Of a stretch of 52,079 nt of DNA, positions 25,496 through 39,148 are shown piece by piece. The position numbers and the translations under genes are program-made. Numbering within the stretch: the first letter of the stretch is position 1; each line of letters begins with the position of its first letter. The DNA is from Gemmatales bacterium (GTDB taxonomy: Bacteria > Planctomycetota > Planctomycetia > Gemmatales > Gemmataceae). The notes under the pieces were generated by a model that had not been told where the DNA came from, did no database searches, and worked only from the letters and a program-made list of their open reading frames with translations. The stretch spans positions 1-52,079 of the forward strand of contig JBBRLG010000001.1 in NCBI GenBank assembly GCA_038231495.1, read 5' to 3'.

Positions 25496-27987
25496 GCCAT
25501 ACTTGCTTGCAACCCTATGCCGTGGTAGAACCAGTTGCCGCCCGTGCCACGTTCGCTCTTGAAGCCTTTACCGTTCATGTAGTTACGAAATGCGGCAGCC
25601 GTCATTAGCTTGTCGCCAGACCAGCGTTGGTACGCTTCGTACAACAACGATGTTCTGACCTTCACGGCATCGTTGACGAAGCAGCAATCGTCAATAAAAG
25701 CATGAATCACGTCCTGTTCGGCGCGGTAAGCAGCGGTGGCCCCACTGACCTCCTCGGGTTCGGCTAGTCCGTCACGCTGCCAGTCGAGGCAGCCTTGTAT
25801 TGCCCATGCCAGGATGCCGGACGACTCGGCTTTCAGCTTGGCCAAAAGCGTCTTGTCCTTTTCGTGGTCCGGGATGGTGACAGTGAAGGGGATGAGTTTG
25901 ATGCGTCGCCAGACGGCGTAATCCGCGCCGCGCACCTGCGGCTTGTGGTTCGCGGCCAGGAAGATTTTTCCGGTCATCTCGAACTCGAAAAAGTCCTGTC
26001 GCATCTTCCGGGCCGTCACCGAATCGCCGCCCGTCAACTGCTTCATCAGGGCCTCGGCCAGTCGCTTTCCTTCATCCGTCTCGATGGTGCAAACGAATCG
26101 TTTACCGAACAAATCGGCGCGTTCAGTGGGATGGGCCTCGGTGTTCTTCGCCATCAGAAGTTCCGGCACGGCTTGATACCCGTACCCGCCAAGGATGTGC
26201 TTTGGCACGCCGAGATAGGTCGATTTGCCATTCGCGCCGCCGCCGTGGAGGAAAAACAGGCATTGCTCGCGCACGTCCCCCGTGAGGCTGTAGCCGGCTG
26301 TCCGTTGAAGGTAGGTGATTAGCGCTTGGTTGCCGTCCATGATGCGCTGCAAGAAGCGCAGCCAAAGCACGCATTGGGCGTTGGGATCGTATTCGACGGG
26401 GGCCAGTTTGGTGATGAGGTCTCTCCGCCGGTGTTCGCGGAGTTCCCCGGTTCTCAAGTCGATGGTGCCGTTACGGACATTGAGCATGAACGGGTCGCGG
26501 TCCATGTCCGCGGGCAGGATCGGTATGCCTGGCTCAGACGTGGCCAGCTGGAGACAAGCGCTGATTCGCCGCGCATCCTCCCACGACAGTAAATGCTTCA
26601 ACTTCCGCGTGAGTTGTGGTAGCTCCTTCTTGCGTTCATCCTCATCGGCGAGCTTCCCCAATTCGACGATCTGGTGCGCCACCTCACCGTACAGCGAGGT
26701 TTGCGTTTCCTTTACCAGCCGAATAGCGGCGGCGGTGTCGTCCTCGGCCCATCGCGTGCCGTCGTAGATGTACGACTTCTTGAAAGGGTGACAGTATCGC
26801 CAATCCGCGCCGTGCCGGGCGACGACGCGCCGCGAGTTGCCCAGGTCAGTTAGGTGAAACTCGCGTGGAGTAACGCAAGCGTCGGTCTGCGGTTTGGTGC
26901 CGTTCTTGGATGGCGGAGCGCCGTTCGCACCGAAGGGGCTTTTGTGTCGGCCGCCGCGTGGCTCGTAACCGCCGCTTTGACCGTCGAGCGCCTTGGAAAG
27001 CGTTCGTTCGCGGTAGTCAGGCCGGTTCCATTTTGAGCGATACAGACCGCTCTGCGCGAACAGGTCGCAAACGCGCTGACGGTCGTAGTTGCACCACCAC
27101 CCCAGGTGATTCACAAGGGCGAGGTCGGCTTCGGAGCCGGACTTGTAACCCGACGCATCTCCGTGCCATAGGGTGCGAATGCGGCCTCCGTTTTTCGAGC
27201 GAAACATTCGCTCTAGCAGGTCGGCGTCGGCCAGGTCGTGGGGCGTGCTACCGCTCCGGGAGTTGCCGTTGCTCTCCGCCTTGCGCTCTTCGCCGAATTG
27301 GTCGTTGTGGATGCGGCGCAAGGCGTCCTGGCGTGCTTCAATGGTAAGCGGCGTGCCAGGGATGTGCTGGCCGGTGACAGTGACGTAACGGCCCGTCTCG
27401 TAGTTCTCGTAGTGGCCTTTCTTCCGACCATGCCGCGGCAGCGTGCCAAGAAGGAAAAGGGGAACACCAGTTCCCGAAGGCGAAACTTCGCTGTAAGTGT
27501 TCAGGGCGTCGATGATCGCCATTGCCCACGGCTCGATGGTCCCGGTTATCGCATCGCGGCAGTGGTCGAGGTCCACGCCGATCAGGTGGAGTGGGGCGTC
27601 CACGCCCTTACTGTCCTCCGGCCCCATCTTCAATGACAGGGCAAAACCGATACCGTCGTACCTGCCTTGCCCGGTGACGGGGTCGTAGCAGTCCCGATGG
27701 TAGGCTTGAAGGGCAACGTCAAAGGGCGACCACGTTTTTCGGTTCGTGCTACTGCCCGCGCTGCCCGTGCGTGCGTTGACCGGCGGCTTATCGTAATCAA
27801 TCTCGCCGGTGTCCTTGTCAACTTCTTCCACGTACCCCCAAACAAGCCATTGGTCCTGTGCTTTTAGGAATTCGGGGATGGCGTCGGCAATTACCCGCAT
27901 CCCCTTGGGTCTGGTAGGAATATCTGCGGCAGCGGACTGGCCGTTTACTGGATCGTCGCAATTGTCGGCCTCGGCGTTTAGGGTCAT
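25480..27987 (-). CDS. P4-family primase-helicase (N-terminal primase-polymerase, D5_N-like, SF3 helicase)
   Basis: Walker A FFLHGGGANGKST. Central and C-terminal regions are typical of phage/plasmid primase P4-family proteins. ATG 27987 overlaps the upstream stop (ATGA). Confidence 0.9.
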   Translation of the reverse strand: MTLNAEADNCDDPVNGQSAAADIPTRPKGMRVIADAIPEFLKAQDQWLVWGYVEEVDKDTGEIDYDKPPVNARTGSAGSSTNRKTWSPFDVALQAYHRDCYDPVTGQGRYDGIGFALSLKMGPEDSKGVDAPLHLIGVDLDHCRDAITGTIEPWAMAIIDALNTYSEVSPSGTGVPLFLLGTLPRHGRKKGHYENYETGRYVTVTGQHIPGTPLTIEARQDALRRIHNDQFGEERKAESNGNSRSGSTPHDLADADLLERMFRSKNGGRIRTLWHGDASGYKSGSEADLALVNHLGWWCNYDRQRVCDLFAQSGLYRSKWNRPDYRERTLSKALDGQSGGYEPRGGRHKSPFGANGAPPSKNGTKPQTDACVTPREFHLTDLGNSRRVVARHGADWRYCHPFKKSYIYDGTRWAEDDTAAAIRLVKETQTSLYGEVAHQIVELGKLADEDERKKELPQLTRKLKHLLSWEDARRISACLQLATSEPGIPILPADMDRDPFMLNVRNGTIDLRTGELREHRRRDLITKLAPVEYDPNAQCVLWLRFLQRIMDGNQALITYLQRTAGYSLTGDVREQCLFFLHGGGANGKSTYLGVPKHILGGYGYQAVPELLMAKNTEAHPTERADLFGKRFVCTIETDEGKRLAEALMKQLTGGDSVTARKMRQDFFEFEMTGKIFLAANHKPQVRGADYAVWRRIKLIPFTVTIPDHEKDKTLLAKLKAESSGILAWAIQGCLDWQRDGLAEPEEVSGATAAYRAEQDVIHAFIDDCCFVNDAVKVRTSLLYEAYQRWSGDKLMTAAAFRNYMNGKGFKSERGTGGNWFYHGIGLQASMASDGR

Positions 27988-28271
27988 TTTACGGCCCTTC
28001 TTTCCGCCGCTTTGATCGCATCCCAGGTCCGCGCGTCGGGCATTCCTGCTTTGATCCACGCTTTGACTTCCTCGGCGTCCCAACGCAACTGAGAACCAAG
28101 TCTGTGTGCTTTCAACAACTTGCCGGACGCGCGAAGTCGGTGAAGCGTTGCGGGCGACGTTCGCAACTGAAAACACAAATCATTAGTGTCAAACGTCAGT
28201 GGCGCGCCCTGCGAGTCGTTCGGGGGTTGCTCGGAGGGGATAACGGTTGCCAGCTTCACGACGTTATTCAT
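27984..28271 (-). CDS. AlpA/excisionase-type HTH DNA-binding protein
   Basis: LRTSPATLHRLRASGKLLKAHRLGSQLRWDAEEVKAWI is an MerR/AlpA-like winged HTH. Translationally coupled to the primase gene. Confidence 0.6.
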   Translation of the reverse strand: MNNVVKLATVIPSEQPPNDSQGAPLTFDTNDLCFQLRTSPATLHRLRASGKLLKAHRLGSQLRWDAEEVKAWIKAGMPDARTWDAIKAAERRAVK

Positions 28272-28497
28272 GGCCGTCCCCCTTCCGGCAGGAGCGGCGG
28301 GCGTCGATGGCGTTCAGTTCGTGCCGGACCATTGCCACGGCCTTTCGGTCGTAAAGGCGAAGAGTTCCGGCGCGGGCGGAGGGGTTAATGTGTGGTCGTG
28401 TGGCCAGTACATGCAGAACGCGATGCAGGGGGACGCGCAGTTCGCCGGCGATAACGCCAGGAGTAATCAGGCGCGGGGCGGTCTTTGCGATACTCAC
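28264..28497 (-). CDS. small putative DNA-binding protein
   Basis: First gene after the operator region. ITPGVIAGELRVPLHRVLHVL looks HTH-like. Overlaps the next gene by 8 nt. Confidence 0.4.
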   Translation of the reverse strand: MSIAKTAPRLITPGVIAGELRVPLHRVLHVLATRPHINPSARAGTLRLYDRKAVAMVRHELNAIDARRSCRKGDGHE

Positions 28498-28541
28498 GGT
28501 CGCTCCTTTCAGGTCGGGACGTGGTGCCCTTTCTGAAAGAC

Positions 28542-28628
28542 AGCGCTCACAGGGGCTTTTGCGGAAGTGCTTTGGTGGAAAGGGAATAAAACTTGTGAGC
28601 GCTCACAAAGAGGCCGCGAGCGCTCACA
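28542..28628. promoter_or_regulatory. three-site operator (AGCGCTCACA x3, one full 16-bp palindrome)
   Basis: Cores at 28542-28551, 28598-28607 and 28619-28628. The middle site is TTGTGAGCGCTCACAA (28593-28608). Sites 2 and 3 are 21 bp apart. Confidence 0.55.
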
Positions 28629-28639
28629 AACTAGGACGA

Positions 28640-30007
28640 CTACAGGCGCTTTCGGGAGCGAACCACCCGCGGCCGCCGGTCCTTCGGATCATCTTCTAAG
28701 GGGCTAGGCTCGTGGTCGGCTTCCTGTGCGGAGAGTAGTTGCTGCTGCTCGGCGTCAGACAAATCATCCCACTTCGGCTTAGGTTGAGATTGCTCCTCGG
28801 CGGCAACTAACTGTTTTAATACTTCGTCGCGAGTCCCTTCCCCCTTCACGGCCTCAAGATCGTTGGTAAAGCTCACGGGAGCGGGGGAGGGCTGAGACGG
28901 CCGATTGCCGATCCGTCCGGCAAGGCGGAGCCTTTGCTTTTGAGCCTTGGGATAGAGAGGGGTTTTCGTCCACGTCTCGAAACTGCATCCAATTCGTGTC
29001 GCTTGCTTTCGCGTGGACAACAGAAAGAACTCCCCCTTCATCCGCCTTGCCAACTCCATCGCTTTCTTATTCGCTTCCTCCACCGTCATGCGACCCGACT
29101 TTTTATTTTCGCCGGAGGCACGGCCCATGCTTATCCGGTCGAAAAGCCGCGCGAAGTGGTCAACACGGTCGTATGCCGGGTAGAGACGGTTGACTAGCAC
29201 AACGCATGGTCCACCTTTTTCCTTTGCGGCCTCTTCTGCTGAAAGTCGGCCGAGGCGAACCGCGTGTTCCCACAACAGTAGATCGGTGCAGCCCTCTGCC
29301 AGTTGCTTGGCGGCTTCCTCCGCCTCGCGCTCCCGACCATCGCCAAGGCTTCGTCCGGCAGCCCAGCAATCCGCAACCAGTTCGAGCAATTGGTTTTTCA
29401 TTTCCGCGCGAAACTCGGTCGTTTGCGGCGAGCGCTCGCGCGGTGACTTGAGGTCCCGTGCCAGTTCTTGTTCGCGGATTTGCAAAACGAGCGCGCAAAG
29501 CTGGCGGAAAGGATTCGGTTTAGCGGGTTGCTCCACCGGACGACGGGTTGGAGTCTCCGTTTCTTCAACCAACTTCGCCCACCACTGACACATCTGGGGC
29601 GTTGATTCGATCAGGCAATCCTCGAGGGCTGCCGACTCGTTAGCGTTTGGCCACATGGTCCCGCCACTTCGCCCGCGCCTATCGAACGTAAAAACGGGGG
29701 CATCGGGACCGGGTTGCCGGACCTTTATCATTCCCTGGCCGATTAGCTGACGGATGGCCGCTGCTGCCACGTCTTTCGGTTGCCCTCGATCCCGGAGGGC
29801 TTGAATTATTTGAGAGTACCGAACGACTTTCAAACCCGGTGCGGGATCAGGTCCGGGGTTATCCGAAGCGTTAGCCATGTCCGCGAGCGCCGGCGGAATG
29901 AGGCGCATCGCCGCCTGCGTAAGTGCTTCTGGCGGGTTAAAGAATTCATGCTGGGTGTCGGTGAGTGAATGCAATTCGCCCGGACCGGACAGGGTATCGT
30001 CGCTCAT
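28640..30007 (-). CDS. hypothetical protein (455 aa), no recognisable domain
   Basis: Long ORF with a coherent frame and acidic/basic low-complexity tails. Lies between the dead hsdM and the replication-module operator. Confidence 0.6.
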   Translation of the reverse strand: MSDDTLSGPGELHSLTDTQHEFFNPPEALTQAAMRLIPPALADMANASDNPGPDPAPGLKVVRYSQIIQALRDRGQPKDVAAAAIRQLIGQGMIKVRQPGPDAPVFTFDRRGRSGGTMWPNANESAALEDCLIESTPQMCQWWAKLVEETETPTRRPVEQPAKPNPFRQLCALVLQIREQELARDLKSPRERSPQTTEFRAEMKNQLLELVADCWAAGRSLGDGREREAEEAAKQLAEGCTDLLLWEHAVRLGRLSAEEAAKEKGGPCVVLVNRLYPAYDRVDHFARLFDRISMGRASGENKKSGRMTVEEANKKAMELARRMKGEFFLLSTRKQATRIGCSFETWTKTPLYPKAQKQRLRLAGRIGNRPSQPSPAPVSFTNDLEAVKGEGTRDEVLKQLVAAEEQSQPKPKWDDLSDAEQQQLLSAQEADHEPSPLEDDPKDRRPRVVRSRKRL

Positions 30008-30146
30008 GAAGTGTCGCTCCTTCTCAGAAGTGCCGCAACCGCCCTCCCGCTTCTGAGTTCGGGAAGACGGCGCGGCAAGGATGCACCTTCATTGTTCGGG
30101 CGGTGAAGAAGGGAATCAAGGGCCGTCACTCGCAATACCGAACCGC

Positions 30147-31761
30147 TCATTTGATTTTACGGAGTGTTGCCAGTGCCTCGGCCACTTCGCGGCCCTTCGC
30201 TTCGATCAGGTCGAGCAGTTCTTCCGGCGTCCGCTTATCGACCACCGTTCTTGCGTTCGGGTTCACCGCCTTCAAATCGTAGTTCTTGGCCTCGCTGACC
30301 GAACGCTCGACGGTCCAGCTGCGGTCACTGTCGCCGCGTTCGGGTAGCAGGCGGAAGAAGTCTTCAAAACGGTCGAGCATGAACGGGGTTTTCTTGCCAA
30401 CCTTGATGTCGGACAGGTCGTAATACCAGATGCGTTCCGTCAGCCGGCCCTTGGTGAAAAACAGCAAGTTCGTTTTCACCCCCGCGCCGGCCGCGGTGAA
30501 CACGCCGCCGGGCATACTCACGATGCACCACAGTTCGCATTCGTCGAGCAAGTTACGCTTCGTCTGCACGAAAGCCAATTCGTTCGTGCGGAACAACACG
30601 CCCTCATCCAGCACGATTCCGCACCGGCCCCCCGGTTTCAAACTTTCGATGACGTGTTGCAGGAACAAAACCTGCGTCGCGCTGGTCTTGTAGGGGAAGC
30701 GCGTTTGCGCCTCCTTGCCTTCTTTGCCGCCGAACGACGGGTTCGTCAACACCACGTCGAATTGGCCGGGAGCGTCTTGAAACAGGCCGCCATAGGTCTC
30801 GCCGCCCGTCAGCGTGTTGCCGTGCCAGAGGTTCGGCTAGTCGATGCCGTGAAGCACCAGGTTGGCAAGGGCGATGGGGTAGACAAGGTTCTCTTTCTCG
30901 CGGCCGAAAAAAGTTTGCCGCTTCAAGATGTCGATTTGCTCCCCGGTCGCCGTCGCCCCGACCTGGGCGCGCATGAACTCGTTCGCCTGTGCCAAAAAAC
31001 CGCCGGTCCCGCAACACGAATCGTACACCGTTTCGCCGACCTTCGGCGCGATGACGCGGACCATCGCGCGGATGATCTCGCGCGGCGTGAAGAACTGGCC
31101 GCCGTCGTTGCCCTTCTCGCCCATTTTCAGGAGCAAGCCTTCGTACACCTGGGAGAGCGTGAAAACGTGCGTCGGGTCGGTGCGCTCGTTGCTGATTTCG
31201 TGAACCTTGTCCAGCACGTCGAGAAGGTTGCGCTCGGTGTCGATGCGCGTCCGCTCCACGCCCGACATGATTTCGCTAATGACCTTCTGCCGCGGCGTCG
31301 CGTTGGGTTTGTCGCGTAGCGTTTTCAAATGCGGCAACAGGTCGGTATTCACGAACCCGAAGAAGGCACCCAGCGCCCCGTTTTGCAACTCCTGGCGTTT
31401 CGGCCCTTGAGGGTCGGCCCAATCCTGCCAGCGGTACGGCACTTCAAGCGAGGGCGTGAAACCCGCGCCGACGGCTTCGGCTTCTTCGGCCTCGCGGGCC
31501 TCGCGCTCGTCGAGGATGCGCAGGAACAGAATCCACCGAGGGCGTGAAACCCGCGCCGACGGCTTCGGCTTCTTCGGCCTCGCGGGCCTCGCGCTCGTCG
31601 AGGATGCGCAGGAACAGAATCCACGTCAATTCGGGGACGTACTGCAACGCGCCGGCGCAGTTCGAGCGCCGCATGATGTCGCAAATGGATTTGATGGCGG
31701 AGTTGACGGAGGCTTGCGAGGTCAGAGCCTTGCCGTTGCCGTTGCTGCGTTTCTTGCCCAT
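30147..31761 (-). pseudogene. hsdM: type I R-M methyltransferase subunit, disrupted (88-bp tandem duplication + in-frame TAG)
   Basis: HsdM_N-like start (ICDIMRRSN...LTWILFLRILDE). Motif I FFTPREIIRAMV...YDSCCGTGGFL. Motif IV VVLTNPSFGG. It is split over ORFs 31444-31761, 30837-31442 and 30147-30755. Confidence 0.85.
31449..31624. repeat. perfect 88-bp tandem duplication inside hsdM
   Basis: Copies at 31449-31536 and 31537-31624. Two listed plus-strand ORFs start with the same 27 aa because of it. 88 is not a multiple of 3. Confidence 0.95.
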
Positions 31762-31765
31762 CGCG

Positions 31766-32575
31766 TTAGTGAGCCTCGCGCTGGACTTGTTCGATGTATT
31801 CCGTCACGTTTTCGGGCCGAACCGCCTGGACATGGTACTCTTCCAGGACGCCGAAAACTCGCTGGCGAAGACGGTCGTTCCGGTCGGTCGGTGCAAACGT
31901 CGTCACAACCACCAGTTTTTGATCCCGACCATCCGCCGTCAGGTGCTTGGCCAAGAGGTCGCCTTCCACCGCAAGAACCATCGCCGCGTTTTCCGCCGAA
32001 CTTTCCTTGGCAGGGAAGTAGTACGGCTTGACGTAATTTATCAACCCGTTTTCGTAAACGTAGGGAACGTTGATGCGCTTCTCCAAAACGGGAACCTCAA
32101 CCGAGACGTTAAGGCGCGCACGCTTGTCCCGCTTAAGGTTTCGGAAGAGTGCTTCCAATTCGGGGACAAGGGGGGGCCTTCGTCGCGCGCGGGGTCTTGC
32201 CGGCTCGATAACCAGCTTTTGAAAAAGGGCTTCCAGTTCTTGTTGCGGTTCGTCCACCACAAGGGAGCGGGGTTCGCTCAAACGCACGTTATCGGCGCGC
32301 GCGCCAACGAACCGCTCCAGGTCTTCCTTTGACCGCGGCCGGTCGTCGGTTTTTTCTAGGCGATAGACTAACCCGCGCTTCGCCGCGTCGAGGGCGCGCG
32401 GGTGAAACGCCTCTTTGCCGAAAACCTTCTTTACCCGGTCGTTCCCGTCGATCAGCTTGACCTGAACAAAATCAGACGCGGGGCAGAAAAGCAGTACGCC
32501 GACGTTTACCGCTTCCAGACGGGACGGGTCGGGGCAGAACTGAACCAAACTGTAGTAACCGGGTTGCGGGTGCAT
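31766..32575 (-). CDS. DUF3037-like protein with an uncharacterised C-terminal half
   Basis: N-terminus YYSLVQFCPDPSRLEAVNVGVLLF matches my recollection of the DUF3037 signature. 269 aa, intact. Confidence 0.65.
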   Translation of the reverse strand: MHPQPGYYSLVQFCPDPSRLEAVNVGVLLFCPASDFVQVKLIDGNDRVKKVFGKEAFHPRALDAAKRGLVYRLEKTDDRPRSKEDLERFVGARADNVRLSEPRSLVVDEPQQELEALFQKLVIEPARPRARRRPPLVPELEALFRNLKRDKRARLNVSVEVPVLEKRINVPYVYENGLINYVKPYYFPAKESSAENAAMVLAVEGDLLAKHLTADGRDQKLVVVTTFAPTDRNDRLRQRVFGVLEEYHVQAVRPENVTEYIEQVQREAH

Positions 32576-32617
32576 GGTTGTGCGTCCAGAGGGGTTGGAG
32601 CGTACCCCTATTGAAAC

Positions 32618-33436
32618 CTACGGGCATAGGGCGAGCAACTGTTTTATTACCTCATCGGCCACAAAGACGGCACGGCGACAGATTAACCGTTCCCACACGG
32701 GCAGAACGGCCGATGGAACCTCCCATTCACGCGGAACCCGAGCGAGGATTTCGTTGACGGTTTGGGGGTCGATCTGTCGGAGCCGGCGACTTGACTCTTC
32801 AAGAATTCCAGGTCGCAGCCAGTACAGGAAGGCAGGAAACAGGCCGTACAACCGGCCGTCCCTCTCGTGGTCAATGTCCGCCATCCTTTGGCTCAGGTCG
32901 CTGCCGCACGTGAAACAATGCGTGTGGTCCATCGCGACGAGTTGGCACCGCTCGGCGGGGAGGTTTTCACTGCTCAGGTATACATTATTGTAGTTCACCT
33001 TCCGCATTGCTAGGTCAGGAGGATGGCGGTCGCAGTTCAGCGCCCAGTTGTCGAACACGACAAGACGCGAAATGTCGTCGGGATTCTCCAGTGTTTCAAG
33101 CTCGACGGGATCGCCGCTCCACGTTCGGCCAGGACAGTCGCGGGCAACGAACGCCGGGCCGGGTTGGGCCTGGCCGCCTCGCCGAAAAGGAATTTCGGGA
33201 GCCTCGCCAAGAACCACCGTGGCATTATCGAACGTCGGCAAGCCAAACCATCGGGCCAAAGCCGTTGCCACCAGTTCGCACGCCAACGGATGCGGCCCTT
33301 GGCGATTGCCCAGCGCCTTGATGTACGCTTCCCCGGCAGCGGTTTCGATTCGGGCCGTCCCCATGCTAGTGTCGTACCCTTCGATGAAGCGTTTAACGCG
33401 CGTGGGTTGCCAGGGCGGCGCGACGGGTTGACTCAA
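32618..33436 (-). CDS. HipA-like serine/threonine kinase (kinase core only), TTG start
   Basis: Catalytic-loop-like VFDNWALNCDRH and downstream VAMDHTHCF. ~270 aa, without the HipA N-terminal domains. Confidence 0.65.
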   Translation of the reverse strand: MSQPVAPPWQPTRVKRFIEGYDTSMGTARIETAAGEAYIKALGNRQGPHPLACELVATALARWFGLPTFDNATVVLGEAPEIPFRRGGQAQPGPAFVARDCPGRTWSGDPVELETLENPDDISRLVVFDNWALNCDRHPPDLAMRKVNYNNVYLSSENLPAERCQLVAMDHTHCFTCGSDLSQRMADIDHERDGRLYGLFPAFLYWLRPGILEESSRRLRQIDPQTVNEILARVPREWEVPSAVLPVWERLICRRAVFVADEVIKQLLALCP

Positions 33437-33465
33437 ACCAACTCTCCTTGAGTCGAGAAGAAAGA

Positions 33466-34098
33466 TCAGGGTATGAGGATGTCAAGCGTTTGCCGCCGGA
33501 GGTCGTCGATGTAGCTCGCCAATCCTTCCCGGACTCCGGCCTCGGTCGCGGACAGGCCGGAGCCAAAGACGGCACGCAAGGCCGTGTCACAGTGACGGCC
33601 GGGCACGACTTTCGTGAGGACGGGAGCAAATCCCAGCCCGTCGATGATTCGGAGGATGGTTTGCTCGAAACAAATAACCCGGCCTTGCAGCCGACCCCGG
33701 ACCCGCTCGCAGACTTCGCCGGCGGCACTACAGAGAGCGACCAAACTGCGCTTGTCACTCGTGACCAGCCGGCAATCGGCGTAGGCTCCGGTTGCCGAGA
33801 ACAGCACGGCCTCACCGGTGTCGATGCCCAGGATGTCGTTGAAGGCGAGTTGTTCGTCCGGCGGCGGCGCTACGTCGATCACGCCAACCGCGTCGAAGAA
33901 ATGCCGGAGCCGTTCGTATTCGGGTTCACCCGGTCTTACCCTTCCCTTCCCAGGTTTTTTAGGGCTGATAAGCTTGTGAACGGCGGAGTTCAGGACCAAG
34001 ATTTCGGCGGAGGTAACACCAAGGGCAGCAACCGCCTCGCCCAAGAGGTCGCAGCAAGCCAGTTTCAGGATAACGTCATTGTCCGTAAGGCAGATCAT
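33466..34098 (-). CDS. PIN-like domain protein
   Basis: MICLTDNDVILKL, DTGEAVLF and LVTSDKRSL are acidic positions spaced as in PIN nucleases. ATG 34098 overlaps the upstream stop (ATGA). Confidence 0.5.
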   Translation of the reverse strand: MICLTDNDVILKLACCDLLGEAVAALGVTSAEILVLNSAVHKLISPKKPGKGRVRPGEPEYERLRHFFDAVGVIDVAPPPDEQLAFNDILGIDTGEAVLFSATGAYADCRLVTSDKRSLVALCSAAGEVCERVRGRLQGRVICFEQTILRIIDGLGFAPVLTKVVPGRHCDTALRAVFGSGLSATEAGVREGLASYIDDLRRQTLDILIP

Positions 34099-35087
34099 CC
34101 GGCGTGCCCGTGGCGCGTCACCCGCATAAGGAACTCGCTGCTGTCTTCGGGGAGCCGGGACCAATCCAGTTGGTCGGCCAGGGCCGCCCGGATGGTCTGG
34201 ATCGCATCGGCGCTCGGGTCCAACCGCTTCAGGGCCGCATTCGCTACGGCATAAAAGCCCGCCCCCATCGCATGGGCATAGTTGAGAACGACGTGCCCGG
34301 GGTCGATCTTTTGCAGGCGTCCGATTCGCCTCGCCTCATCGGCAAGGGCTTGCGCGTTCGGCCACCGACCGGCGGCGCGAAACTGGCGCGTCGCGGAGCC
34401 GGTGAGTAACTCAATCGCAAAGGAATTGGCCTCCATTTCCTCCGCGTCCAGACTCTCCTCGTCTACGCGGTCGTCTAGTAATGCTCCGTCATCCACTATG
34501 TGACCGCGAGCTATGTGGCCGATTTCGTGGGCCAGGATGAACAACTGCCACGCCGGCGCCTTTTTGCGGTTGCACAAAATGACCACGGGGCGGCCGTTGA
34601 CTCGGGCGGCAAACCCATCGGGTCGGCGGCAACTCTTCGGAAAGTGATCCAGGTGCAAAACCGGGATGCCGGCCGACCAGCAAAAGTTGAGGAGTTCCGG
34701 AAGGCCAACCCAACGAGCACCATCAAGGATCGTCTGGCGAATCTCGGCGGGGTCCGCGGAGATAGGCAGGGAGGGGGATTCCATCGCCTCGGCTGCCAGT
34801 TGGGCGGCCCGCGTTGCCAGCATCCGACACAGGACCAACTCATCCTCGCTAACGTCCGCGCGTTTCTTGTATCTGCACGAACCGAATTCGCGGAGCCGCA
34901 CCGGAGCCGCCTCGTCTTGTAGACTCGCAAGGTCGAGACCCAGGTGGCGCGAAAGAATTAGCAGAGCGTGGGCGTAACCGGCAGGGTTCGACGCGATTTC
35001 GTCGTCCCACCAGCTGGGCAGGGCCGTATCCCGGATGTACTTTCGGCTCAGGCCGGCTCGGCTGAGCCGAGCGTACAGCGGCGACAT
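34095..35087 (-). CDS. ImmA/IrrE-family zinc metallopeptidase
   Basis: HEXXH in WQLFILAHEIGHIARGH, plus the downstream EEMEANSFAIELL typical of this family. ATG 35087 is preferred to the listed TTG 35198. Confidence 0.8.
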   Translation of the reverse strand: MSPLYARLSRAGLSRKYIRDTALPSWWDDEIASNPAGYAHALLILSRHLGLDLASLQDEAAPVRLREFGSCRYKKRADVSEDELVLCRMLATRAAQLAAEAMESPSLPISADPAEIRQTILDGARWVGLPELLNFCWSAGIPVLHLDHFPKSCRRPDGFAARVNGRPVVILCNRKKAPAWQLFILAHEIGHIARGHIVDDGALLDDRVDEESLDAEEMEANSFAIELLTGSATRQFRAAGRWPNAQALADEARRIGRLQKIDPGHVVLNYAHAMGAGFYAVANAALKRLDPSADAIQTIRAALADQLDWSRLPEDSSEFLMRVTRHGHAG

Positions 35088-35211
35088 GGGGTTGACCGTA
35101 GACAAAGCGTTTTTCCTCCCCGGCGTATTGACGGCAAGCCTCCTCGCAATGGGTTGATGGTCGTGATGAGTCGAAGGGTCCGATCCGTGACTTGACAAGC
35201 TTCGTCTCTCA

Positions 35212-35334
35212 TTATACTGCCTGGACGGTCAACGTCGATACGGGGTTCCCCACGCGAGAATAGCCGGGAGCGGTGTCGATCCGGGCCGTTCCCAGGCGCG
35301 TGGATGACCAGGGTGTCGGGACGGGTTGACTCAT
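35212..35334 (-). pseudogene. relic 5' fragment of a HipA-like kinase gene
   Basis: MSQPVPTPWSSTRLGTARIDTAPGY... versus the intact MSQPVAPPWQPTRV...GTARIETAAGE. The DNA is ~85% identical over ~95 aligned nt with a ~35-nt gap. Its ATG overlaps the hsdS stop (ATGA). Confidence 0.6.
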
Positions 35335-36575
35335 GCCAACTCTCCTTGAAACGCGCGACGGAGAAGGGCGGCGGGTAGAGCAGCGATTGCCGAGAGTTGC
35401 GATTCAACCGCGGCCCGCGCTTGAGCCACGGTTGCCAGCTGCTTCGTTAACCCCTCAGCGATTCGCCGTTGCCTCTCGATCGGCGGCAGTTCAATCTCGA
35501 CCGCCGCAACTTCTTCCGTTCGGATGCGGGGAAGTTGACCCGGCGTTTGATCGACCGGCGCTCGGTTCAAAAACGTGGGACTGCGCATAAACCACGAAAC
35601 GAAAGTTGCGTCCGCAACGTCAGGCTTGAGACAATAAACGTATTGATCGACGGAGCAGATACCGTCGAATTCGGCTACCCAAACTTTGTTCAAATAGGGG
35701 CGCAAATATCCGTAAACGATGTCTCCCTTGCGGAATTGAGGCTTCCGCCCGGTAAGTCGAGCCAGATCCGTTTCGACTGCACCGATACGGACCCCTGTTT
35801 GCGATTGAACATGCTCAAGGCCGACAAACGTGGCACTGCCCGATGGGCTGTCATACGGGTGAATTACTTCTTTGCGAAGCGCGAGAATATCCCCCAGAAT
35901 TTTCTTCGGCCACGCCCGACGGCCATGACTGTCGAACACTTCTCGCAGATACGCGGCGGGGAGTGACTGTGCCGCCTTCAAGCGGACTTCGGCGGCGGTC
36001 CGTGCCCGTTCCACTGTGGCCAATTGATTCGTCAGCTTGGCGGCAAGGCGTTCCTGTTCTTTTGGTGACAGCAAGGGAATCCTGAATTCTTCGATCAGCG
36101 ATTTTGTCAGCGCCTGTCGCGTCGCCCCGGCCTGCGTGTCTGAAATGAATTTCTGAAAGCCTGGCGTCGAGATCAGCAGAGACAGGTAATGTGGAGAAAG
36201 GTCGGGCTTGCAGCGAATGATGCTGACGTGCTGATTAACATTTGCCGGGCAAAGTTCGGCTGGCACGACACACACGCGACCGATGGAAGCCCCCGTGATG
36301 TTTAACAGCACATCACCCGGTTCGACGCGGCTGGTTTTCATCTCGGCATCTTGCTCGACCGAAACGAACGCTAGTCCTTCCCGGCTAAACCGATTAAAGT
36401 GGACGTTTTGGCTCCTGATAAGGGGAATTCCGCTCCGCTGGTATGTCGCGTGGCCTCCGAGTGGCGTCAAACCGCTTCCGATTTTTGTCGTCAAATCTCC
36501 AAGCCGACCCCATCGCCAACCGGAGCGCAGTGGTCGCTCGGTTTCCCCGTTTCCGTACTGCATTACCTCACTCAT
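35331..36575 (-). CDS. hsdS: type I R-M specificity subunit
   Basis: Two target-recognition halves, each followed by the conserved coiled-coil repeat (PLLSPKEQERLAAKLTNQLATVERAR / LPPIERQRRIAEGLTKQLATVAQAR). Confidence 0.9.
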   Translation of the reverse strand: MSEVMQYGNGETERPLRSGWRWGRLGDLTTKIGSGLTPLGGHATYQRSGIPLIRSQNVHFNRFSREGLAFVSVEQDAEMKTSRVEPGDVLLNITGASIGRVCVVPAELCPANVNQHVSIIRCKPDLSPHYLSLLISTPGFQKFISDTQAGATRQALTKSLIEEFRIPLLSPKEQERLAAKLTNQLATVERARTAAEVRLKAAQSLPAAYLREVFDSHGRRAWPKKILGDILALRKEVIHPYDSPSGSATFVGLEHVQSQTGVRIGAVETDLARLTGRKPQFRKGDIVYGYLRPYLNKVWVAEFDGICSVDQYVYCLKPDVADATFVSWFMRSPTFLNRAPVDQTPGQLPRIRTEEVAAVEIELPPIERQRRIAEGLTKQLATVAQARAAVESQLSAIAALPAALLRRAFQGELA

Positions 36576-38929
36576 GCCGCGAACATCCTTTCCTTCGTCT
36601 CGCGTAGCAAATCAGCCGGCTTGCCCGCGATCTTGAGCGCGTCGAGGCCGCCCGCCGTCCGTACTTCGGGTGTTTGGAATACTTGCGGGTTCTCTAGCCC
36701 CTCGGTGCCGCCGCGCTCGAACTGCGATGCAATCGCTCGCAAGGTAGCCGCGGTGGTCGGCGGCAGCTTGCCCAGCCAGGCGGCGTGTTTGTAGGTGAAG
36801 GCCGCGGTTCGTGCCTCGCGGGTCCGCGCCGCCGCGCCGTAGGCCAGTTCCACCAGCACGTCGTACAGGTCGTATTCATCCATTTCTTGAAGCTGGCGCA
36901 CCAAAAGCGCCGACCGGCCCGCGTCCGGCAATCGGCCCAACAACAGTTGGCGATCCGCCGGAACCACCCAACGGGCGCGAAACTTGTCCAGCGTGTCGGC
37001 TTCTTCCAGCACCTTCGCGGCCAGCTTCTGCCGGTAAACCTCGACGGTCACGGGCAGTGCCTTGCCGTCCACCATCGTCAGAATGAGCCGGCCCGCGTCG
37101 CTCACCTGCACGTCGAAGCCTTCCACCTGAACGATCAACGGCGGCGGGTCGGTAGTGCCGCCCCCGGTCGGTGGCGTTTTCGGAGCGCGCTCTACCGTCG
37201 CCTTGGTACGGAACTCCTGACCGAACAACCGCGTGGCGTTGGTGTAGTCGTACAGCCGGAACATCAGTTTGCCGCTTGCGGGGTCGAGGCGCGTTCCACG
37301 ACCGACCATCTGATAGAAGCTGATCGGCGATTCGACATACTTGAAAAACACGATGTTCCGCACGCACGGCACGTCCACGCCGGTCGTCAGTAGATCGACC
37401 GTCGTGGCGATGAAGTGGTGCCGGGCACCGCCGCGCAGGTCCGCCAGGTAGTCGCCTCCGCCGCTGGCGGCCGTGCATTTGAACGCGAACATATCGAGCG
37501 GCTTGCGGTTGTTGGTCTTGCACCAGTCGGCGTAAAGGTTGTTCAGCGTGATGGCCACTTCTTCGGCGTGCCGGTCGCGGGCGCAAAAGATGATCGTCTT
37601 TTGCTCCGGTCCTCCGGTGTCGAGAAGGTGTTGGAACAAATCCAGGCACATCGCCAGCACTCGGTCTGGCAACAGGATGCGGTTCTCGAAGGAAGTCTTT
37701 TCGTAGAGATGGTTCAACTGATCGGCCGTAATGGGCTGGCCGGTGGTGGCGTTGATGAACTTGCGCGCGAGAATGGCATCCTTCGTGATGCCGGTGTCGT
37801 CGATGTTGACGGTGCCTTTTTGAATGGCGCAGGCGGCAAGGTAGCCGTCCTCGATGCCCTGGCTCATGTCGTATTCGTAAACCGGCGGGCCGAAGTACCG
37901 CAGGTTGTCGGCGTTGATTTTCGCGTCGGCCTTCGCCTGGTCGGTGTTTTCGGCGCAAATGATCTGCCGCGGCGTCGCGGTCAGGCCGACTTGAACCGCG
38001 TCGGGGTTCATGGTCAGAACCTGCGACCACTTGCCCCAGGCGGAGCGGTGGCATTCGTCAATGACGATGTGGCTGAAGTAGTTCGGCGGGTAGTGCGTGG
38101 CAAGGAAATTGGCGTCGGCGTCGTCGGTGTCCACGTCGAGCGTTTGGTAGGTCGCGATGACCACGCGGGCGTTCTTTTCGGGGTTGCCCGCCCCGGCAGC
38201 GGCGGCGTCGTTACCGAACACGGCCCGAAACGCGCCCAACCCCTGGTTGCGTAGTTCGTCCCGGTCGCAGACGAACAGCGCCCGGCGCAACTGGCCGGCG
38301 TCGGCGATCCGCTTCAAGAGGTTCACCGCGATGAATGTCTTGCCCGAACCCGTGGCCAGCGAGAGCAAAGCGCGTTTCTCGCCCTTGGCCACCTTTTCCA
38401 GCACGGCCCGAATCGCGGCGTCCTGGTAATACCGCCGCGTCGCCTCTCCGCCGACGTAGCGGGTCAATAGCGGTTGGGCCGGCGGGTCGTTCAGGCTGAA
38501 CCCCATGCCGGCTTCGTAGCGGGCGCGCAGCTCGTCCGGGGTCGGGAACTCCGCCAACGGCTTCGCCTTGCTCGTCTGGCCGGTAAGCCGGTCGTACTCG
38601 ACGAAAAGATGCCCATTTGAGGAAAAGACGAACGGCACGTTCAGCCGCTTGGACGCGGCGTAAGCCTTCGCTTGCTCCAAGCCGTGCGCGGGCGCCAAGT
38701 CCTCAGCCTTCGCCTCGATCAGCCCCACGGCGACGGGTTGCGATCCGGCGGTGACGCGCACGCGCAGGGTGTAATCGACGCGCCCCCTGGCGCGACGGCG
38801 TGGTTTACCGTCGATAACCTCGATGGTCCCCGCGGTCTCTTCGCGTTTGATGTGTGCTTCGGTCCACTGCCGGCCGTAAAGGGCCGGATCGACGAGTTTC
38901 GCGCGGGTGTCGGCTTCGTTGAATCCCAT
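36572..38929 (-). CDS. hsdR: type I restriction endonuclease subunit R
   Basis: N-terminal MGFNEADTRAKLVDPAL nuclease-domain signature. SF2 motifs LATGSGKT, VIDECHRS, LTATP, QMVGRGTR. The stop overlaps the hsdS start (ATGA). Confidence 0.9.
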   Translation of the reverse strand: MGFNEADTRAKLVDPALYGRQWTEAHIKREETAGTIEVIDGKPRRRARGRVDYTLRVRVTAGSQPVAVGLIEAKAEDLAPAHGLEQAKAYAASKRLNVPFVFSSNGHLFVEYDRLTGQTSKAKPLAEFPTPDELRARYEAGMGFSLNDPPAQPLLTRYVGGEATRRYYQDAAIRAVLEKVAKGEKRALLSLATGSGKTFIAVNLLKRIADAGQLRRALFVCDRDELRNQGLGAFRAVFGNDAAAAGAGNPEKNARVVIATYQTLDVDTDDADANFLATHYPPNYFSHIVIDECHRSAWGKWSQVLTMNPDAVQVGLTATPRQIICAENTDQAKADAKINADNLRYFGPPVYEYDMSQGIEDGYLAACAIQKGTVNIDDTGITKDAILARKFINATTGQPITADQLNHLYEKTSFENRILLPDRVLAMCLDLFQHLLDTGGPEQKTIIFCARDRHAEEVAITLNNLYADWCKTNNRKPLDMFAFKCTAASGGGDYLADLRGGARHHFIATTVDLLTTGVDVPCVRNIVFFKYVESPISFYQMVGRGTRLDPASGKLMFRLYDYTNATRLFGQEFRTKATVERAPKTPPTGGGTTDPPPLIVQVEGFDVQVSDAGRLILTMVDGKALPVTVEVYRQKLAAKVLEEADTLDKFRARWVVPADRQLLLGRLPDAGRSALLVRQLQEMDEYDLYDVLVELAYGAAARTREARTAAFTYKHAAWLGKLPPTTAATLRAIASQFERGGTEGLENPQVFQTPEVRTAGGLDALKIAGKPADLLRETKERMFAA

Positions 38930-39106: not shown

Positions 39107-39148
39107 GCGCCGGCGGGCGGCATCATTTACTGATCCGCCCGCCGGCGC
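39107..39148. terminator. GC-rich stem-loop
   Basis: GCGCCGGCGGGCGG-(14 nt)-CCGCCCGCCGGCGC followed by TTTGTT. Confidence 0.45.

What the first reader, a model, noticed from the sequence alone, without database searches (positions are those of the whole stretch)
31766..35087. Intact four-gene cassette (ImmA/IrrE protease, PIN-like, HipA-like kinase, DUF3037) nested between hsdS and a dead hsdM
All four genes are on the minus strand and co-directional with hsdR-hsdS upstream and hsdM downstream.
- Gaps are short: 243 bp after hsdS, an ATGA overlap between the protease and PIN genes (34095-34098), then 29 bp, 42 bp and 4 bp.
- Motifs read directly: HEIGH zinc site; PIN-like acidic positions (TDNDV, DTGEA, TSDKRS); HipA-type catalytic loop NCDRH in a kinase-core-only protein; DUF3037-like N-terminus followed by ~150 aa with no motif I recognise.
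- The cassette looks like two binary modules: a protease-gated nuclease, and a kinase with an unknown partner.

I know of no demonstrated function for this four-gene combination. Cargo inside a type I R-M operon on an integrative island is a classic context for anti-phage or abortive-infection genes. All four cargo ORFs are intact while the flanking hsdM carries two lesions, which suggests selection on the cargo independent of restriction.
Basis: partly seen in the sequence, partly recalled or inferred. Interest (0 to 1): 0.8.

Follow-up and report, generated by a model that had tools for sequence, protein, structure and literature searches.

The report
Two stacked defence modules, not one cassette
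The four intact genes inside a broken restriction-modification operon are two unrelated two-gene toxin-type modules: a kinase pair of an already validated anti-phage kind, and a protease plus PIN-like pair that is widespread, untested and sits in known phage-defence hotspots.

Summary
In detail: gene coordinates, strand, the five gaps, the quoted motifs, the two hsdM lesions and the island context all check out.

The four genes are not one system. The protease and PIN-like genes are adjacent in 51 of 54 genomes from six phyla, and none of those loci has the kinase or DUF3037 gene within 10 kb. The kinase sits directly upstream of DUF3037 in 61 of 80 metagenome loci, and none of those has the protease or PIN-like gene.

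- **Kinase + DUF3037.** This is a divergent member of PADLOC candidate PDC-M66. The same architecture has been validated as anti-phage (DS-6/HipAD, and the pair beside Retron-Sda1). It recurs between hsdS and hsdM elsewhere.
- **Later insertion.** A decayed copy of the kinase 5' end directly after hsdS shows that the protease/PIN-like pair was inserted into an older hsdS-kinase-DUF3037-hsdM operon.
- **Protease + PIN-like.** This is an obligate pair with about 1,870 protein clusters at 50% identity. No Pfam, NCBIfam or PADLOC model covers the second gene. It lies next to DISARM and type IIG genes in cyanobacteria. In E. coli it sits in the P2 gpA-gpQ defence hotspot. I found no experimental test of it.

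Verdict: half already known, half a good untested defence candidate. Interest is moderate.

The parts
36572..38974 (-). hsdR, intact type I restriction subunit (800 aa)
   Evidence: ResIII, Helicase_C and EcoEI_R_C domains; PADLOC REase_I E 7e-87. A promoter-like site lies at 39035-39007 just upstream.
35331..36575 (-). hsdS, intact specificity subunit (414 aa, two target-recognition domains)
   Evidence: Methylase_S in two stretches; PADLOC Specificity_I E 1e-56.
35262..35349 (-). Relic of the kinase ribosome-binding site and 5' coding end. It starts with an ATGA overlap on the hsdS stop codon, is about 85% identical to the live kinase start, and carries a 33-nt deletion.
   Evidence: Direct repeat D2; alignment A7. 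The same hsdS-ATGA-kinase junction is seen intact in locus L137.
35211..35238 (-). Promoter-like site (TCGACG-16-TATAAT) between the relic and the ImmA start. It may be the inserted module's own promoter.
   Evidence: This is a consensus match only, and the total count in the region is not above chance.
34095..35105 (-). ImmA/IrrE/CapP-type Zn-metallopeptidase (336 aa from TTG 35105; 330 aa from ATG 35087). It has an N-terminal five-helix domain and a helical C-terminal domain.
   Evidence: PF06114 above cutoff. HExxH (H187, E188, H191) plus E217 are conserved across phyla. AF2 pLDDT 92; best PDB match is CapP 7t5t, prob 1.0, E 0.017.
33466..34098 (-). ORF3, a 210-aa PIN-like putative nuclease of a large family with no Pfam model. 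It overlaps ImmA by 4 nt (ATGA).
   Evidence: No Pfam, NCBIfam or PADLOC hit. AF2 pLDDT 92.8. Top Foldseek hits are PIN proteins PAE0151 and VapC, but E >= 0.17. D6, D8 and D115 are invariant and E96 and E145 near-invariant in 144 representatives. There are 1,871 clusters at E <= 1e-3.
33398..33451 (-). Live copy of the repeated junction (ribosome-binding site plus kinase start). It marks the downstream edge of the inserted ImmA-ORF3 segment (about 33452-35261).
32618..33436 (-). HipA_2-family Ser/Thr kinase, kinase core only (272 aa, TTG start with an AAGGAG ribosome-binding site)
   Evidence: PF20613 at 29 bits against a cutoff of 27. PDC-M66A E 0.0097 here and matched by 23 of 29 relatives. 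K40, N134, D136, R137, N151 and D170 are invariant in 29 relatives.
31766..32575 (-). DUF3037 protein (269 aa): an N-terminal DUF3037 domain plus a conserved C-terminal half of about 140 aa with unknown fold. It is the presumed neutraliser of the kinase.
   Evidence: PF11236 E 6e-15. PDC-M66B E 1.4e-8 here and matched by 47 of 47 relatives. The C-terminal half has no Pfam or PDB match.
30147..31761 (-). hsdM pseudogene. An 88-bp tandem duplication (31444-31619) shifts the frame, and an in-frame TAG lies at 30837-30839.
   Evidence: Removing one repeat copy restores a 508-codon frame that is interrupted only by the TAG.
19072..49357 (.). An integrative island of about 30.3 kb. It runs from an intact tRNA-Cys (19072-19143) to an exact 50-nt copy of the tRNA 3' end (49308-49357). 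It carries an integrase (19049-20650), a D5_N primase (25480-28176) and an HTH_17 gene (27984-28271).

Best explanation
The 3.3-kb segment is two autonomous two-gene modules of toxin-antitoxin / abortive-infection type. They are stacked in the hsdS-hsdM gap of a type I R-M operon that is now dead, on a tRNA-Cys integrative island.

**Module 1, the older resident.** A HipA_2 kinase is followed by a DUF3037 protein. This is a divergent member of the PDC-M66 / DS-6 (HipAD) kind.
- Inferred from experiments on that architecture in other bacteria: the DUF3037 protein holds the kinase inactive.
- Infection relieves the block, and the kinase phosphorylates a host target, so the infected cell stops growing.
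- The target and the trigger are unknown.

**Module 2, inserted later with its own promoter-like site.** A CapP/IrrE/ImmA-type zinc protease has an extra N-terminal helical domain, and its gene overlaps that of a PIN-like putative nuclease. All steps below are inferred.
- The protease-regulator keeps the nuclease silent or bound.
- A phage or DNA-damage cue activates the protease, as happens for CapP, IrrE and ImmA.
- Cleavage of itself, or of an inhibitory part of the pair, then frees the nuclease to degrade nucleic acid.

**Shown here**
- The anatomy of the locus.
- The independence and conservation of each pair.
- Intact catalytic residues in all three enzymes.
- The insertion history.
- The defence-type genomic contexts.
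For: **The two pairs are independent**
- An ImmA homologue lies directly upstream and co-directional in 49 of 54 loci by a strict criterion, and 51 of 54 counting two partial matches. The loci span six phyla. Kinase or DUF3037 is present in 0 of 54.
- Three further ImmA homologues and three close ORF3 relatives show the same pair in unrelated neighbourhoods.
- The kinase lies directly upstream of DUF3037 in 61 of 80 metagenome loci. ImmA or ORF3 is present in 0 of 80.

**Module 1 is a known kind**
- PDC-M66B matches 47 of 47 and PDC-M66A 23 of 29 family members.
- Literature: the pair beside Retron-Sda1 defends on its own. Deleting the kinase abolishes defence, and deleting DUF3037 is toxic (PMC12548924).
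- A DS-6 kinase catalytic mutant loses defence (PMC13092281).
- The kinase catalytic residues are invariant.

**Insertion history**
- A kinase 5' relic follows hsdS with an ATGA overlap.
- L137 shows hsdS-ATGA-kinase-DUF3037-hsdM with no ImmA-ORF3, and its HsdM is 75% identical to this one.
- A co-directional hsdM lies within 1.5 kb downstream of DUF3037 in 8 of 58 loci that have room.

**Module 2**
- HExxH plus E is conserved, and the fold matches CapP.
- ORF3 has a PIN-like topology with invariant D6, D8 and D115.
- dN/dS is 0.09-0.18 for both genes.
- Neighbours include DISARM DrmA/DrmD, type IIG R-M, PLD-helicase and BrxH.
- In E. coli (25 of 5,426 complete genomes) and in Enterobacter soli the pair lies between P2 gpA and gpQ. 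That interval is the P2 defence hotspot (PMC9122126), where 'Peptidase_M78 + hypothetical' is catalogued as cargo.
Against: - There are no experimental data for these genes or for these exact families.
- The kinase matches PDC-M66A only marginally (E 0.0097).
- The C-terminal half of the DUF3037 protein is not the DUF1829 domain of DS-6B, so the sensing or neutralising details may differ.
- The PIN-like assignment of ORF3 is not statistically significant. The best Foldseek E is 0.17, and only 4 of 144 relatives give faint PIN-clan Pfam hits.
- No HTH could be detected by sequence in the ImmA N-terminus, and no separate antitoxin or repressor gene is conserved. How the nuclease is held in check is therefore open.
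- In PD-lambda-2 the Xre-peptidase itself was the toxic part (PMC9519451), so the roles could be reversed.
- ImmA-ORF3 lies near type I R-M genes in only 4 of 54 loci.
- Three ORF3 homologues on long-read MAG contigs are truncated or frameshifted. This could be sequencing error or counter-selection of a toxin.
Confidence: 0.7

Rival explanations
1. The four genes form one integrated system. The protease and kinase would act in one pathway, for example the protease processing the DUF3037 antitoxin or the kinase regulating the nuclease.
For: - Spacing is tight and all four genes are co-directional in this window.
- All four are intact while hsdM is broken.
Against: - The two pairs co-occur in 0 of 54 ORF3 loci and 0 of 80 DUF3037 loci.
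- Close ORF3 relatives (73-77% identical) sit among unrelated housekeeping genes.
- The kinase relic shows that the ImmA-ORF3 pair arrived by insertion into a pre-existing hsdS-kinase junction.
- A promoter-like site precedes ImmA.
Confidence: 0.04
2. ImmA-ORF3 is not an anti-phage system. It would be a plain addiction (TA) or regulatory module of mobile elements, in the way ImmA/ImmR controls induction of ICEBs1, here helping to keep or to induce the tRNA-Cys island.
For: - ImmA-family proteases are classic regulators of mobile elements.
- The pair is found on an island here, on small cyanobacterial plasmids and in P2-like prophages.
- Matelska et al. 2017 classed DUF955 + PIN-like pairs as TA-like (PMC5499597).
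Against: - No ImmR-like repressor gene is conserved next to the pair.
- In P2-like prophages the pair sits in the accessory gpA-gpQ hotspot, where old and tin lie, not at the immunity region.
- Many copies lie in chromosomal, non-mobile contexts.
- Neighbours are enriched in defence genes.
- A TA function and an abortive-infection function are not mutually exclusive.
Confidence: 0.2
3. The cargo is hitch-hiking or decaying DNA in a dying defence locus, with no current function in this genome.
For: - hsdM has two inactivating lesions.
- A kinase relic shows that the locus has been rearranged.
Against: - All four ORFs are full length.
- All family-invariant catalytic residues are present.
- Ribosome-binding sites and translational coupling are kept.
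- ImmA and ORF3 are under purifying selection relative to their nearest relatives.
Confidence: 0.08
4. ORF3 is not a nuclease. The PIN-like resemblance would be only a shared alpha/beta topology, and the protein has another role, such as a phosphatase or a ligand-binding partner of the protease.
For: - No profile HMM of any PIN family matches.
- No Foldseek match has E <= 1e-3 in PDB or BFVD.
- A profile search of the PDB finds nothing.
Against: - The highest-probability structural match is a PIN protein (2fe1, prob 0.93), and VapC proteins reach a target-normalised TM-score of 0.5-0.6.
- Conserved acidic residues lie at the strand ends and helix start where PIN active sites lie: D6/D8 after strand 1, E96, D115 after the strand at 110-113, and E145 after the strand at 141-143.
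- A few relatives give faint PIN, PIN_3 and DUF1308 hits.
- DUF955 + PIN-like pairing is a described pattern.
Confidence: 0.15

Closest known systems
PDC-M66 (PADLOC candidate) / DS-6 'HipAD' / the HipA-like + DUF3037 pair beside Retron-Sda1
   Same: - A HipA-family kinase gene is followed directly by a DUF3037 gene.
- PDC-M66 A and B are the top PADLOC families for both proteins.
- The kinase catalytic residues are conserved.
- Published behaviour: the kinase is needed for defence and loss of DUF3037 is toxic.
   Different: - This is a divergent, mostly planctomycete branch. The nearest DUF3037 relative is 50% identical, and this kinase matches PDC-M66A at E 0.0097.
- The C-terminal half of the DUF3037 protein is neither the DUF1829 domain of DS-6B nor the region aligned by the PDC-M66B profile.
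- Here, and in several relatives, the pair is nested between hsdS and hsdM.
Canonical HipBA toxin-antitoxin
   Same: A HipA-type kinase core with the catalytic Asp loop (NCDRH), presumably acting as a growth-arresting toxin.
   Different: - There is no HipB (Xre) antitoxin upstream.
- The neutraliser is encoded downstream and is unrelated (DUF3037).
- The kinase is core-only, with a Pfam hit to HipA_2 only.
- There is no sequence match to solved HipA structures.
Predicted DUF955 (COG2856/ImmA) protease + HTH + PIN-like 'three-component TA' (DUF4411, COG2405, PIN_14, PIN_20, PIN_26; Matelska et al. 2017, PMC5499597)
   Same: An M78/DUF955 protease with HExxH is encoded immediately upstream of, and co-transcribed with, a PIN-like gene.
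   Different: - ORF3 matches no Pfam PIN family, including DUF4411.
- No HTH is detectable by sequence, fused or separate.
- I could not test whether the family equals one of that paper's unnamed clusters such as PIN_14.
PD-lambda-2 (Vassallo et al. 2022, PMC9519451)
   Same: - It is a validated abortive-infection system built around an Xre-M78 peptidase fusion.
- PD-Lambda-2_B is the best PADLOC hit of this ImmA (E 6.6e-9).
   Different: - The match covers only the protease core.
- PD-lambda-2 has a HigB-like first gene and a P4-antitoxin-like third gene, and no PIN-like gene.
CapH-CapP (CBASS regulators), ImmR-ImmA and DdrO-IrrE protease/repressor pairs
   Same: - The best structural match of ImmA is CapP (7t5t, prob 1.0).
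- It has the same zinc site.
- These proteases are switched on by DNA damage or ssDNA (established knowledge of the family).
   Different: - No separate HTH repressor substrate gene is present.
- The conserved partner is a PIN-like protein.
- There is no CBASS nearby.
PrrC in EcoprrI, and 'guilt-by-embedding' defence genes nested in multi-gene systems (Payne et al. 2024, bioRxiv 10.1101/2024.01.29.577857)
   Same: Defence-type cargo is nested between the subunit genes of a type I R-M operon. For the kinase-DUF3037 pair this nesting recurs in at least two R-M lineages.
   Different: - The cargo proteins are unrelated to PrrC.
- There is no evidence of functional coupling to the R-M enzyme.
- Here the R-M host is inactivated.

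Membership tests
PDC-M66 / DS-6 (HipAD)-type kinase-DUF3037 system | HipA-family kinase with intact catalytic residues | tested here: met
   PF20613 HipA_2 at 29 bits against a cutoff of 27. K40, N134, D136, R137, N151 and D170 are invariant in 29 relatives and present here.
PDC-M66 / DS-6 (HipAD)-type kinase-DUF3037 system | DUF3037 protein encoded immediately downstream of the kinase | tested here: met
   The gap is 42 nt here. The kinase is adjacent in 61 of 80 related loci. PF11236 E 6e-15.
PDC-M66 / DS-6 (HipAD)-type kinase-DUF3037 system | Both proteins match the PADLOC PDC-M66 A and B profiles | tested here: inconclusive
   B: E 1.4e-8, but only over the DUF3037 domain (profile positions 6-128 of 281). 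A: E 0.0097 and 13 bits for this protein. Among relatives, 23 of 29 match A and 47 of 47 match B. PADLOC's own system rules were not run.
PDC-M66 / DS-6 (HipAD)-type kinase-DUF3037 system | DUF1829 C-terminal domain on the DUF3037 protein, as in DS-6B | tested here: not met
   No DUF1829 Pfam hit in 47 family members. hhalign against one DUF1829 protein gives probability 4%. This feature belongs to DS-6B, not necessarily to the whole kind.
PDC-M66 / DS-6 (HipAD)-type kinase-DUF3037 system | Kinase toxicity neutralised by the DUF3037 protein, and kinase-dependent phage defence | not testable with these tools
   Known only from homologous architectures in the literature.
Canonical HipBA | HipB (Xre-HTH) antitoxin encoded upstream of hipA | tested here: not met
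   The upstream gene is ORF3 (PIN-like). The ancestral upstream gene was hsdS.
DUF955/COG2856 protease + PIN-like TA-like modules (Matelska 2017) | M78/DUF955 protease with a HExxH zinc site | tested here: met
   PF06114 above cutoff. H187, E188, H191 and E217 are conserved across phyla. The fold matches CapP.
DUF955/COG2856 protease + PIN-like TA-like modules (Matelska 2017) | PIN-like nuclease gene directly downstream in the same operon | tested here: inconclusive
   Adjacency is met in 51 of 54 loci. The PIN-like fold is supported only by non-significant Foldseek matches and the geometry of the acidic residues.
DUF955/COG2856 protease + PIN-like TA-like modules (Matelska 2017) | Xre-type HTH domain, fused or as a separate gene | tested here: inconclusive
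   No HTH Pfam hit in 34 cross-phylum members. hhalign against the 434 repressor fails. A PDB search with a profile of the N-terminus finds nothing. The AF2 model does show five short helices in residues 1-57. No separate HTH gene is conserved.
Pfam DUF4411 (PF14367) | Match to the DUF4411 profile | tested here: not met
   No hit at E <= 10 for ORF3. No DUF4411 hit among 144 family representatives.
PD-lambda-2 | Three genes: a HigB-like toxin, an Xre-M78 fusion and a P4-antitoxin-like protein | tested here: not met
   Only the protease core matches PD-Lambda-2_B. The flanking genes are hsdS and ORF3. System composition is from PMC9519451.
Functional type I R-M system | Intact hsdR, hsdM and hsdS | tested here: not met
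   hsdR and hsdS are intact. hsdM carries an 88-bp duplication frameshift and a TAG stop.

The most novel reading that the evidence does not exclude
The ImmA-ORF3 pair is a widespread, unnamed two-gene anti-phage system. A CapP/IrrE-type metalloprotease carrying its own small N-terminal helical domain would directly control a new PIN-like nuclease family, with no separate antitoxin or repressor.

The family has about 1,870 protein clusters at 50% identity and is found from Planctomycetota and Cyanobacteria to E. coli P2-like prophages. It moves as a compact promoter-plus-two-gene unit that can insert even into other embedded defence modules. The copy in this window shows one such insertion caught in the act.
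Probability: 0.4. Interest if true: 0.65.

Novelty: new variant of a known kind. Interest (0 to 1): 0.45.

Why it matters
- **It corrects the picture.** This is not a new four-gene system. It is a layered defence locus in which one embedded module was inserted into another, inside an R-M operon that has since died. That is a clear example of modular turnover in defence islands.
- **It extends a validated system.** The kinase-DUF3037 anti-phage kind reaches a divergent planctomycete branch, and it is recurrently nested between hsdS and hsdM.
- **It flags a testable candidate.** The protease + PIN-like pair forms a large family that current Pfam, NCBIfam and PADLOC models miss. Native E. coli copies sit in the P2 defence hotspot, so the defence hypothesis can be tested directly in a standard host.

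Tried and rejected
**ORF3**
- Pfam, NCBIfam and PADLOC searches, including E <= 10 and the corrected start, gave nothing.
- A profile search of PDB sequences gave nothing.
- Foldseek against BFVD gave nothing useful.
- A protein search of the phage collection found no match.

**An HTH in the ImmA N-terminus**
- hhalign against the 434 repressor failed.
- Pfam on 34 members found no HTH.
- A PDB search with a profile of the N-terminus found none.

**C-terminal half of the DUF3037 protein**
- Pfam on the half alone and on 47 relatives gave nothing.
- A PDB profile search gave only noise.
- hhalign against one DUF1829 protein gave probability 4%.

**Kinase.** A search against PDB sequences gave no hit.

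**Literature**
- A search for the E. coli and Enterobacter protein accessions gave no papers.
- The 2026 P2/P4 hotspot paper does not mention M78 or ImmA.
- Brenes & Laub 2025, the HipAD paper on E. coli prophage defence systems, is not held. I cannot exclude that it, or another paper outside the library, already tested the P2-hotspot M78 pair.

**Rejected ideas**
- The 243-bp gap after hsdS is not plain spacer. It holds the kinase relic.
- The second hsdM lesion is not a frameshift. It is an in-frame TAG.

Full report
**1. Checking the observation**

The ORF scan places four intact minus-strand genes between hsdS (35331-36575) and hsdM:
- DUF3037: 31766-32575
- kinase: 32618-33436
- ORF3: 33466-34098
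- ImmA: 34095-35087

The five gaps are exactly as reported: 243, -4 (ATGA), 29, 42 and 4 nt. The quoted motifs can be read in the sequence.

Pfam confirms three of the four domain calls above curated cutoffs:
- Peptidase_M78: 27.7 bits against 22
- HipA_2: 29 bits against 27
- DUF3037: E 6e-15

ORF3 matches nothing in Pfam, NCBIfam or PADLOC, even at E <= 10.

hsdM is indeed dead. An 88-bp tandem duplication (31444-31531 / 31532-31619, 98% identical) shifts the frame. Once one copy is removed, a 508-codon frame remains, interrupted only by an in-frame TAG at 30837-30839.

hsdR and hsdS are intact.

The island context is real. An intact tRNA-Cys (19072-19143) has its 3' 50 nt repeated exactly at 49308-49357. 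Between the two lie a tyrosine integrase, a D5_N/primase-type protein and an HTH_17 protein.

There are two small corrections. ImmA probably starts at TTG 35105, which follows a GGAGG site and matches the 336-aa gene call. The 243-bp gap is not empty (see section 3).

**2. One cassette or two modules**

I scanned one genome per species with an alignment of ORF3 relatives. It returned 54 loci from Planctomycetota, Cyanobacteria, Myxococcota, Actinobacteria, Acidobacteria and Proteobacteria.
- An ImmA homologue covering the full 330 residues lies directly upstream and co-directional in 49 loci by a strict rule, and in 51 counting two partial ORF3 matches.
- Of the other three loci, one has no upstream DNA, one holds only an ORF3 fragment, and one has ImmA inverted.
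- None of the 54 loci has a kinase or DUF3037 homologue within 10 kb.
- Type I R-M genes are nearby in only four loci.
- Three further ImmA homologues all have an overlapping ORF3 homologue downstream.
- Three close ORF3 relatives (73-77% identical) show the same pair among unrelated housekeeping genes.

The converse scan used the DUF3037 alignment against metagenome contigs and kept 80 loci.
- The kinase is directly upstream in 61 loci. Most of the rest are too short to show it.
- ImmA and ORF3 are absent from all 80.

The four-gene combination is therefore peculiar to this window. Each pair is a tightly conserved unit.

**3. How the locus was built**

A 54-nt direct repeat, 85% identical, links the kinase start and its ribosome-binding site (33398-33451) to the DNA just after hsdS (35296-35349).

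Aligned further, the copy after hsdS continues for about 105 nt of kinase coding sequence with a 33-nt deletion. It begins with an ATG that overlaps the hsdS stop codon (ATGA).

This relic implies an older operon of hsdR-hsdS-kinase-DUF3037-hsdM. That arrangement exists elsewhere:
- In L137, hsdS ends in ATGA, which starts a kinase whose N-terminus (MTAPAGLPWQPRYIRRFI) resembles this one.
- DUF3037 follows, and then an hsdM 75% identical to the window's.

Across the 80 loci, a co-directional hsdM lies within 1.5 kb downstream of DUF3037 in 8 of the 58 with room. L123 shows the same nesting in a second, distant R-M lineage.

The ImmA-ORF3 segment (about 33452-35261, 1.8 kb) was thus inserted at the hsdS/kinase junction. 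It carries almost nothing but its two genes and a promoter-like site (TCGACG-16-TATAAT, 35238-35211). That site is a consensus match only.

**4. The kinase-DUF3037 pair**

In PADLOC the only families matched are PDC-M66A for the kinase and PDC-M66B for the DUF3037 protein.
- For this window the A match is weak (E 0.0097) and the B match is E 1.4e-8.
- Across relatives, A matches 23 of 29 and B matches 47 of 47.
- The kinase keeps the family-invariant K40, N134, D136, R137, N151 and D170.

Published work on the same architecture shows three things:
- The HipA-like + DUF3037 pair beside Retron-Sda1 defends E. coli on its own. Deleting the kinase abolishes defence, and deleting DUF3037 is toxic (PMC12548924).
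- DS-6, renamed HipAD, needs the kinase catalytic residue (PMC13092281).
- AlphaFold3 modelling in that paper predicted that DS-6B contacts the kinase and DNA.

I therefore file this pair as a divergent member of that kind. By inference, the DUF3037 protein neutralises a toxic kinase until infection.

The differences are real:
- The nearest DUF3037 relative is only 50% identical.
- The conserved C-terminal half of about 140 residues is not DUF1829 and matches nothing I could search.

**5. The ImmA-ORF3 pair**

ImmA:
- It is conserved end to end across phyla, with H187-E188-x-x-H191 and E217.
- Its AF2 model (pLDDT 92) best matches CapP, the CBASS-associated protease (7t5t, probability 1.0, E 0.017).
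- Residues 1-57 form five short helices. No sequence method identifies them as an HTH.

ORF3:
- It folds with pLDDT 92.8 into an alpha/beta domain.
- Its highest-probability PDB match is the PIN protein PAE0151, and VapC toxins reach a target-normalised TM-score of 0.5-0.6. No match is statistically significant.
- D6, D8 and D115 are invariant, and E96 and E145 near-invariant, in 144 representatives. They lie at the strand ends where PIN active sites lie.
- Four of the 144 give faint PIN-clan Pfam hits.

The family:
- It is large: 1,871 clusters at 50% identity with E <= 1e-3, of which 495 have E <= 1e-30.
- It is annotated 'hypothetical protein' wherever I looked.
- Both genes show dN/dS of about 0.09-0.18 against their nearest relatives, with dS near saturation.

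**6. Context of the ImmA-ORF3 pair**

I scanned 148 immediate neighbours from 45 genome loci against PADLOC. Strong matches were:
- DISARM DrmA and DrmD (four proteins each, E = 0)
- type IIG R-M (four)
- PLD-helicase (four)
- BrxH (three)
- DpdE-like helicases
- mad2-type methyltransferases

In Enterobacter soli pENTAS02 and in E. coli MS 57-2 the pair lies between the P2 replication endonuclease gpA and the portal gpQ. Related DNA occurs in 25 of 5,426 complete E. coli genomes. The E. coli second gene is a clear ORF3 homologue (hhalign probability 99.8%).

Rousset et al. define that interval as the P2 defence hotspot, where old and tin lie (PMC9122126).
- Their locus table lists 'Peptidase_M78 + hypothetical', including WP_000181463.
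- The pair is absent from their table of tested systems.
- PADLOC v2 has no model for the second gene.

**7. Comparison with known systems, and mechanism**

Matelska et al. 2017 predicted TA-like modules of a DUF955 protease, an HTH and a PIN-like domain (DUF4411, COG2405, PIN_14, PIN_20, PIN_26) (PMC5499597). This pair fits that pattern, but it is not DUF4411 and it lacks a detectable HTH.

PD-lambda-2 is a validated abortive-infection system with an Xre-M78 fusion. Its partners are different, and there the peptidase itself was toxic.

My preferred model for ImmA-ORF3 has three steps:
- The protease-regulator restrains the nuclease.
- A damage or infection cue activates the protease.
- The nuclease is released.

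This is inference by analogy with CapP, IrrE and ImmA. I give the specific steps about 0.3, a defence or abortive role for the pair about 0.55, and the two-independent-modules anatomy about 0.9.

**8. Verdict**

- One half is a new, divergent member of an already validated system.
- The other half is a variant of a predicted kind and has not been tested, as far as the held literature shows. I could not read Brenes & Laub 2025.

Interest is moderate. The value lies in the clear insertion history, the recurrent R-M nesting of the kinase pair, and a directly testable E. coli homologue of the protease/PIN-like pair.

Noticed in passing
window 19072-19143 and 49308-49357: An intact tRNA-Cys(GCA) and an exact 50-nt copy of its 3' end bound an island of about 30.3 kb. 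The integrase ORF (19049-20650, minus strand) overlaps the tRNA on the opposite strand. The island also carries the outer-membrane efflux (OEP) gene at 39474-41015 and further large ORFs that I did not scan against any family library.
   Followed up: partly
window 31444-31619: A perfect-register 88-bp tandem duplication (98% identical) lies inside hsdM. It is the frameshifting lesion, and loss of one copy would restore the frame.
   Followed up: yes
window 39105-39150: A perfect 16-bp inverted repeat (AAGCGCCGGCGGGCGG / CCGCCCGCCGGCGCTT, 14-nt loop) lies between the hsdR promoter-like site and the divergent OEP gene. It may be a terminator or an operator.
   Followed up: no
L044, L049, L050, L051, L054 (about 10.4-12.0 kb in each locus): In one acidobacterium, three actinobacteria and one alphaproteobacterium, a conserved gene pair follows the ImmA-ORF3 pair convergently. 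It is 55-70% identical across phyla. One gene encodes an unknown protein of about 190 aa. The other encodes a protein of about 280 aa with an NPPW motif that resembles N4-bis(aminopropyl)spermidine synthase / DUF43 methyltransferases (5xnc, E 2e-9). This may be a horizontally moving four-gene block.
   Followed up: partly
L077 (231-2438); also L098 and L100: DUF3037 genes are flanked by hsdS or hsdR-like and hsdM-like genes with no detectable kinase between them. In L077 there is no room for one. A DUF3037 protein may therefore sometimes be embedded in R-M operons without its kinase.
   Followed up: no
L057 8011-8709, L058 7995-8240, L059 7996-8538: ORF3 homologues downstream of ImmA on three long MAG contigs are frameshifted or truncated. 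This could be indel error in the assemblies or inactivation of a toxic gene.
   Followed up: partly
L059 2221-6231 and 13169-14014: One ImmA-ORF3 locus lies next to an MmeI-type methyltransferase, a DUF1828/DUF1829 protein and a TIR-domain protein, so it looks like a dense defence island.
   Followed up: no
L055 5134-5971: Upstream of one DUF3037 gene the kinase position holds two short ORFs (108 and 120 aa) with no Pfam hit. This may be a decayed kinase. An Eco57I-type methyltransferase lies nearby.
   Followed up: no
window 28640-30007: A 455-aa ORF with no Pfam match lies between the island's replication/excision genes and hsdM. Its function is unknown.
   Followed up: no
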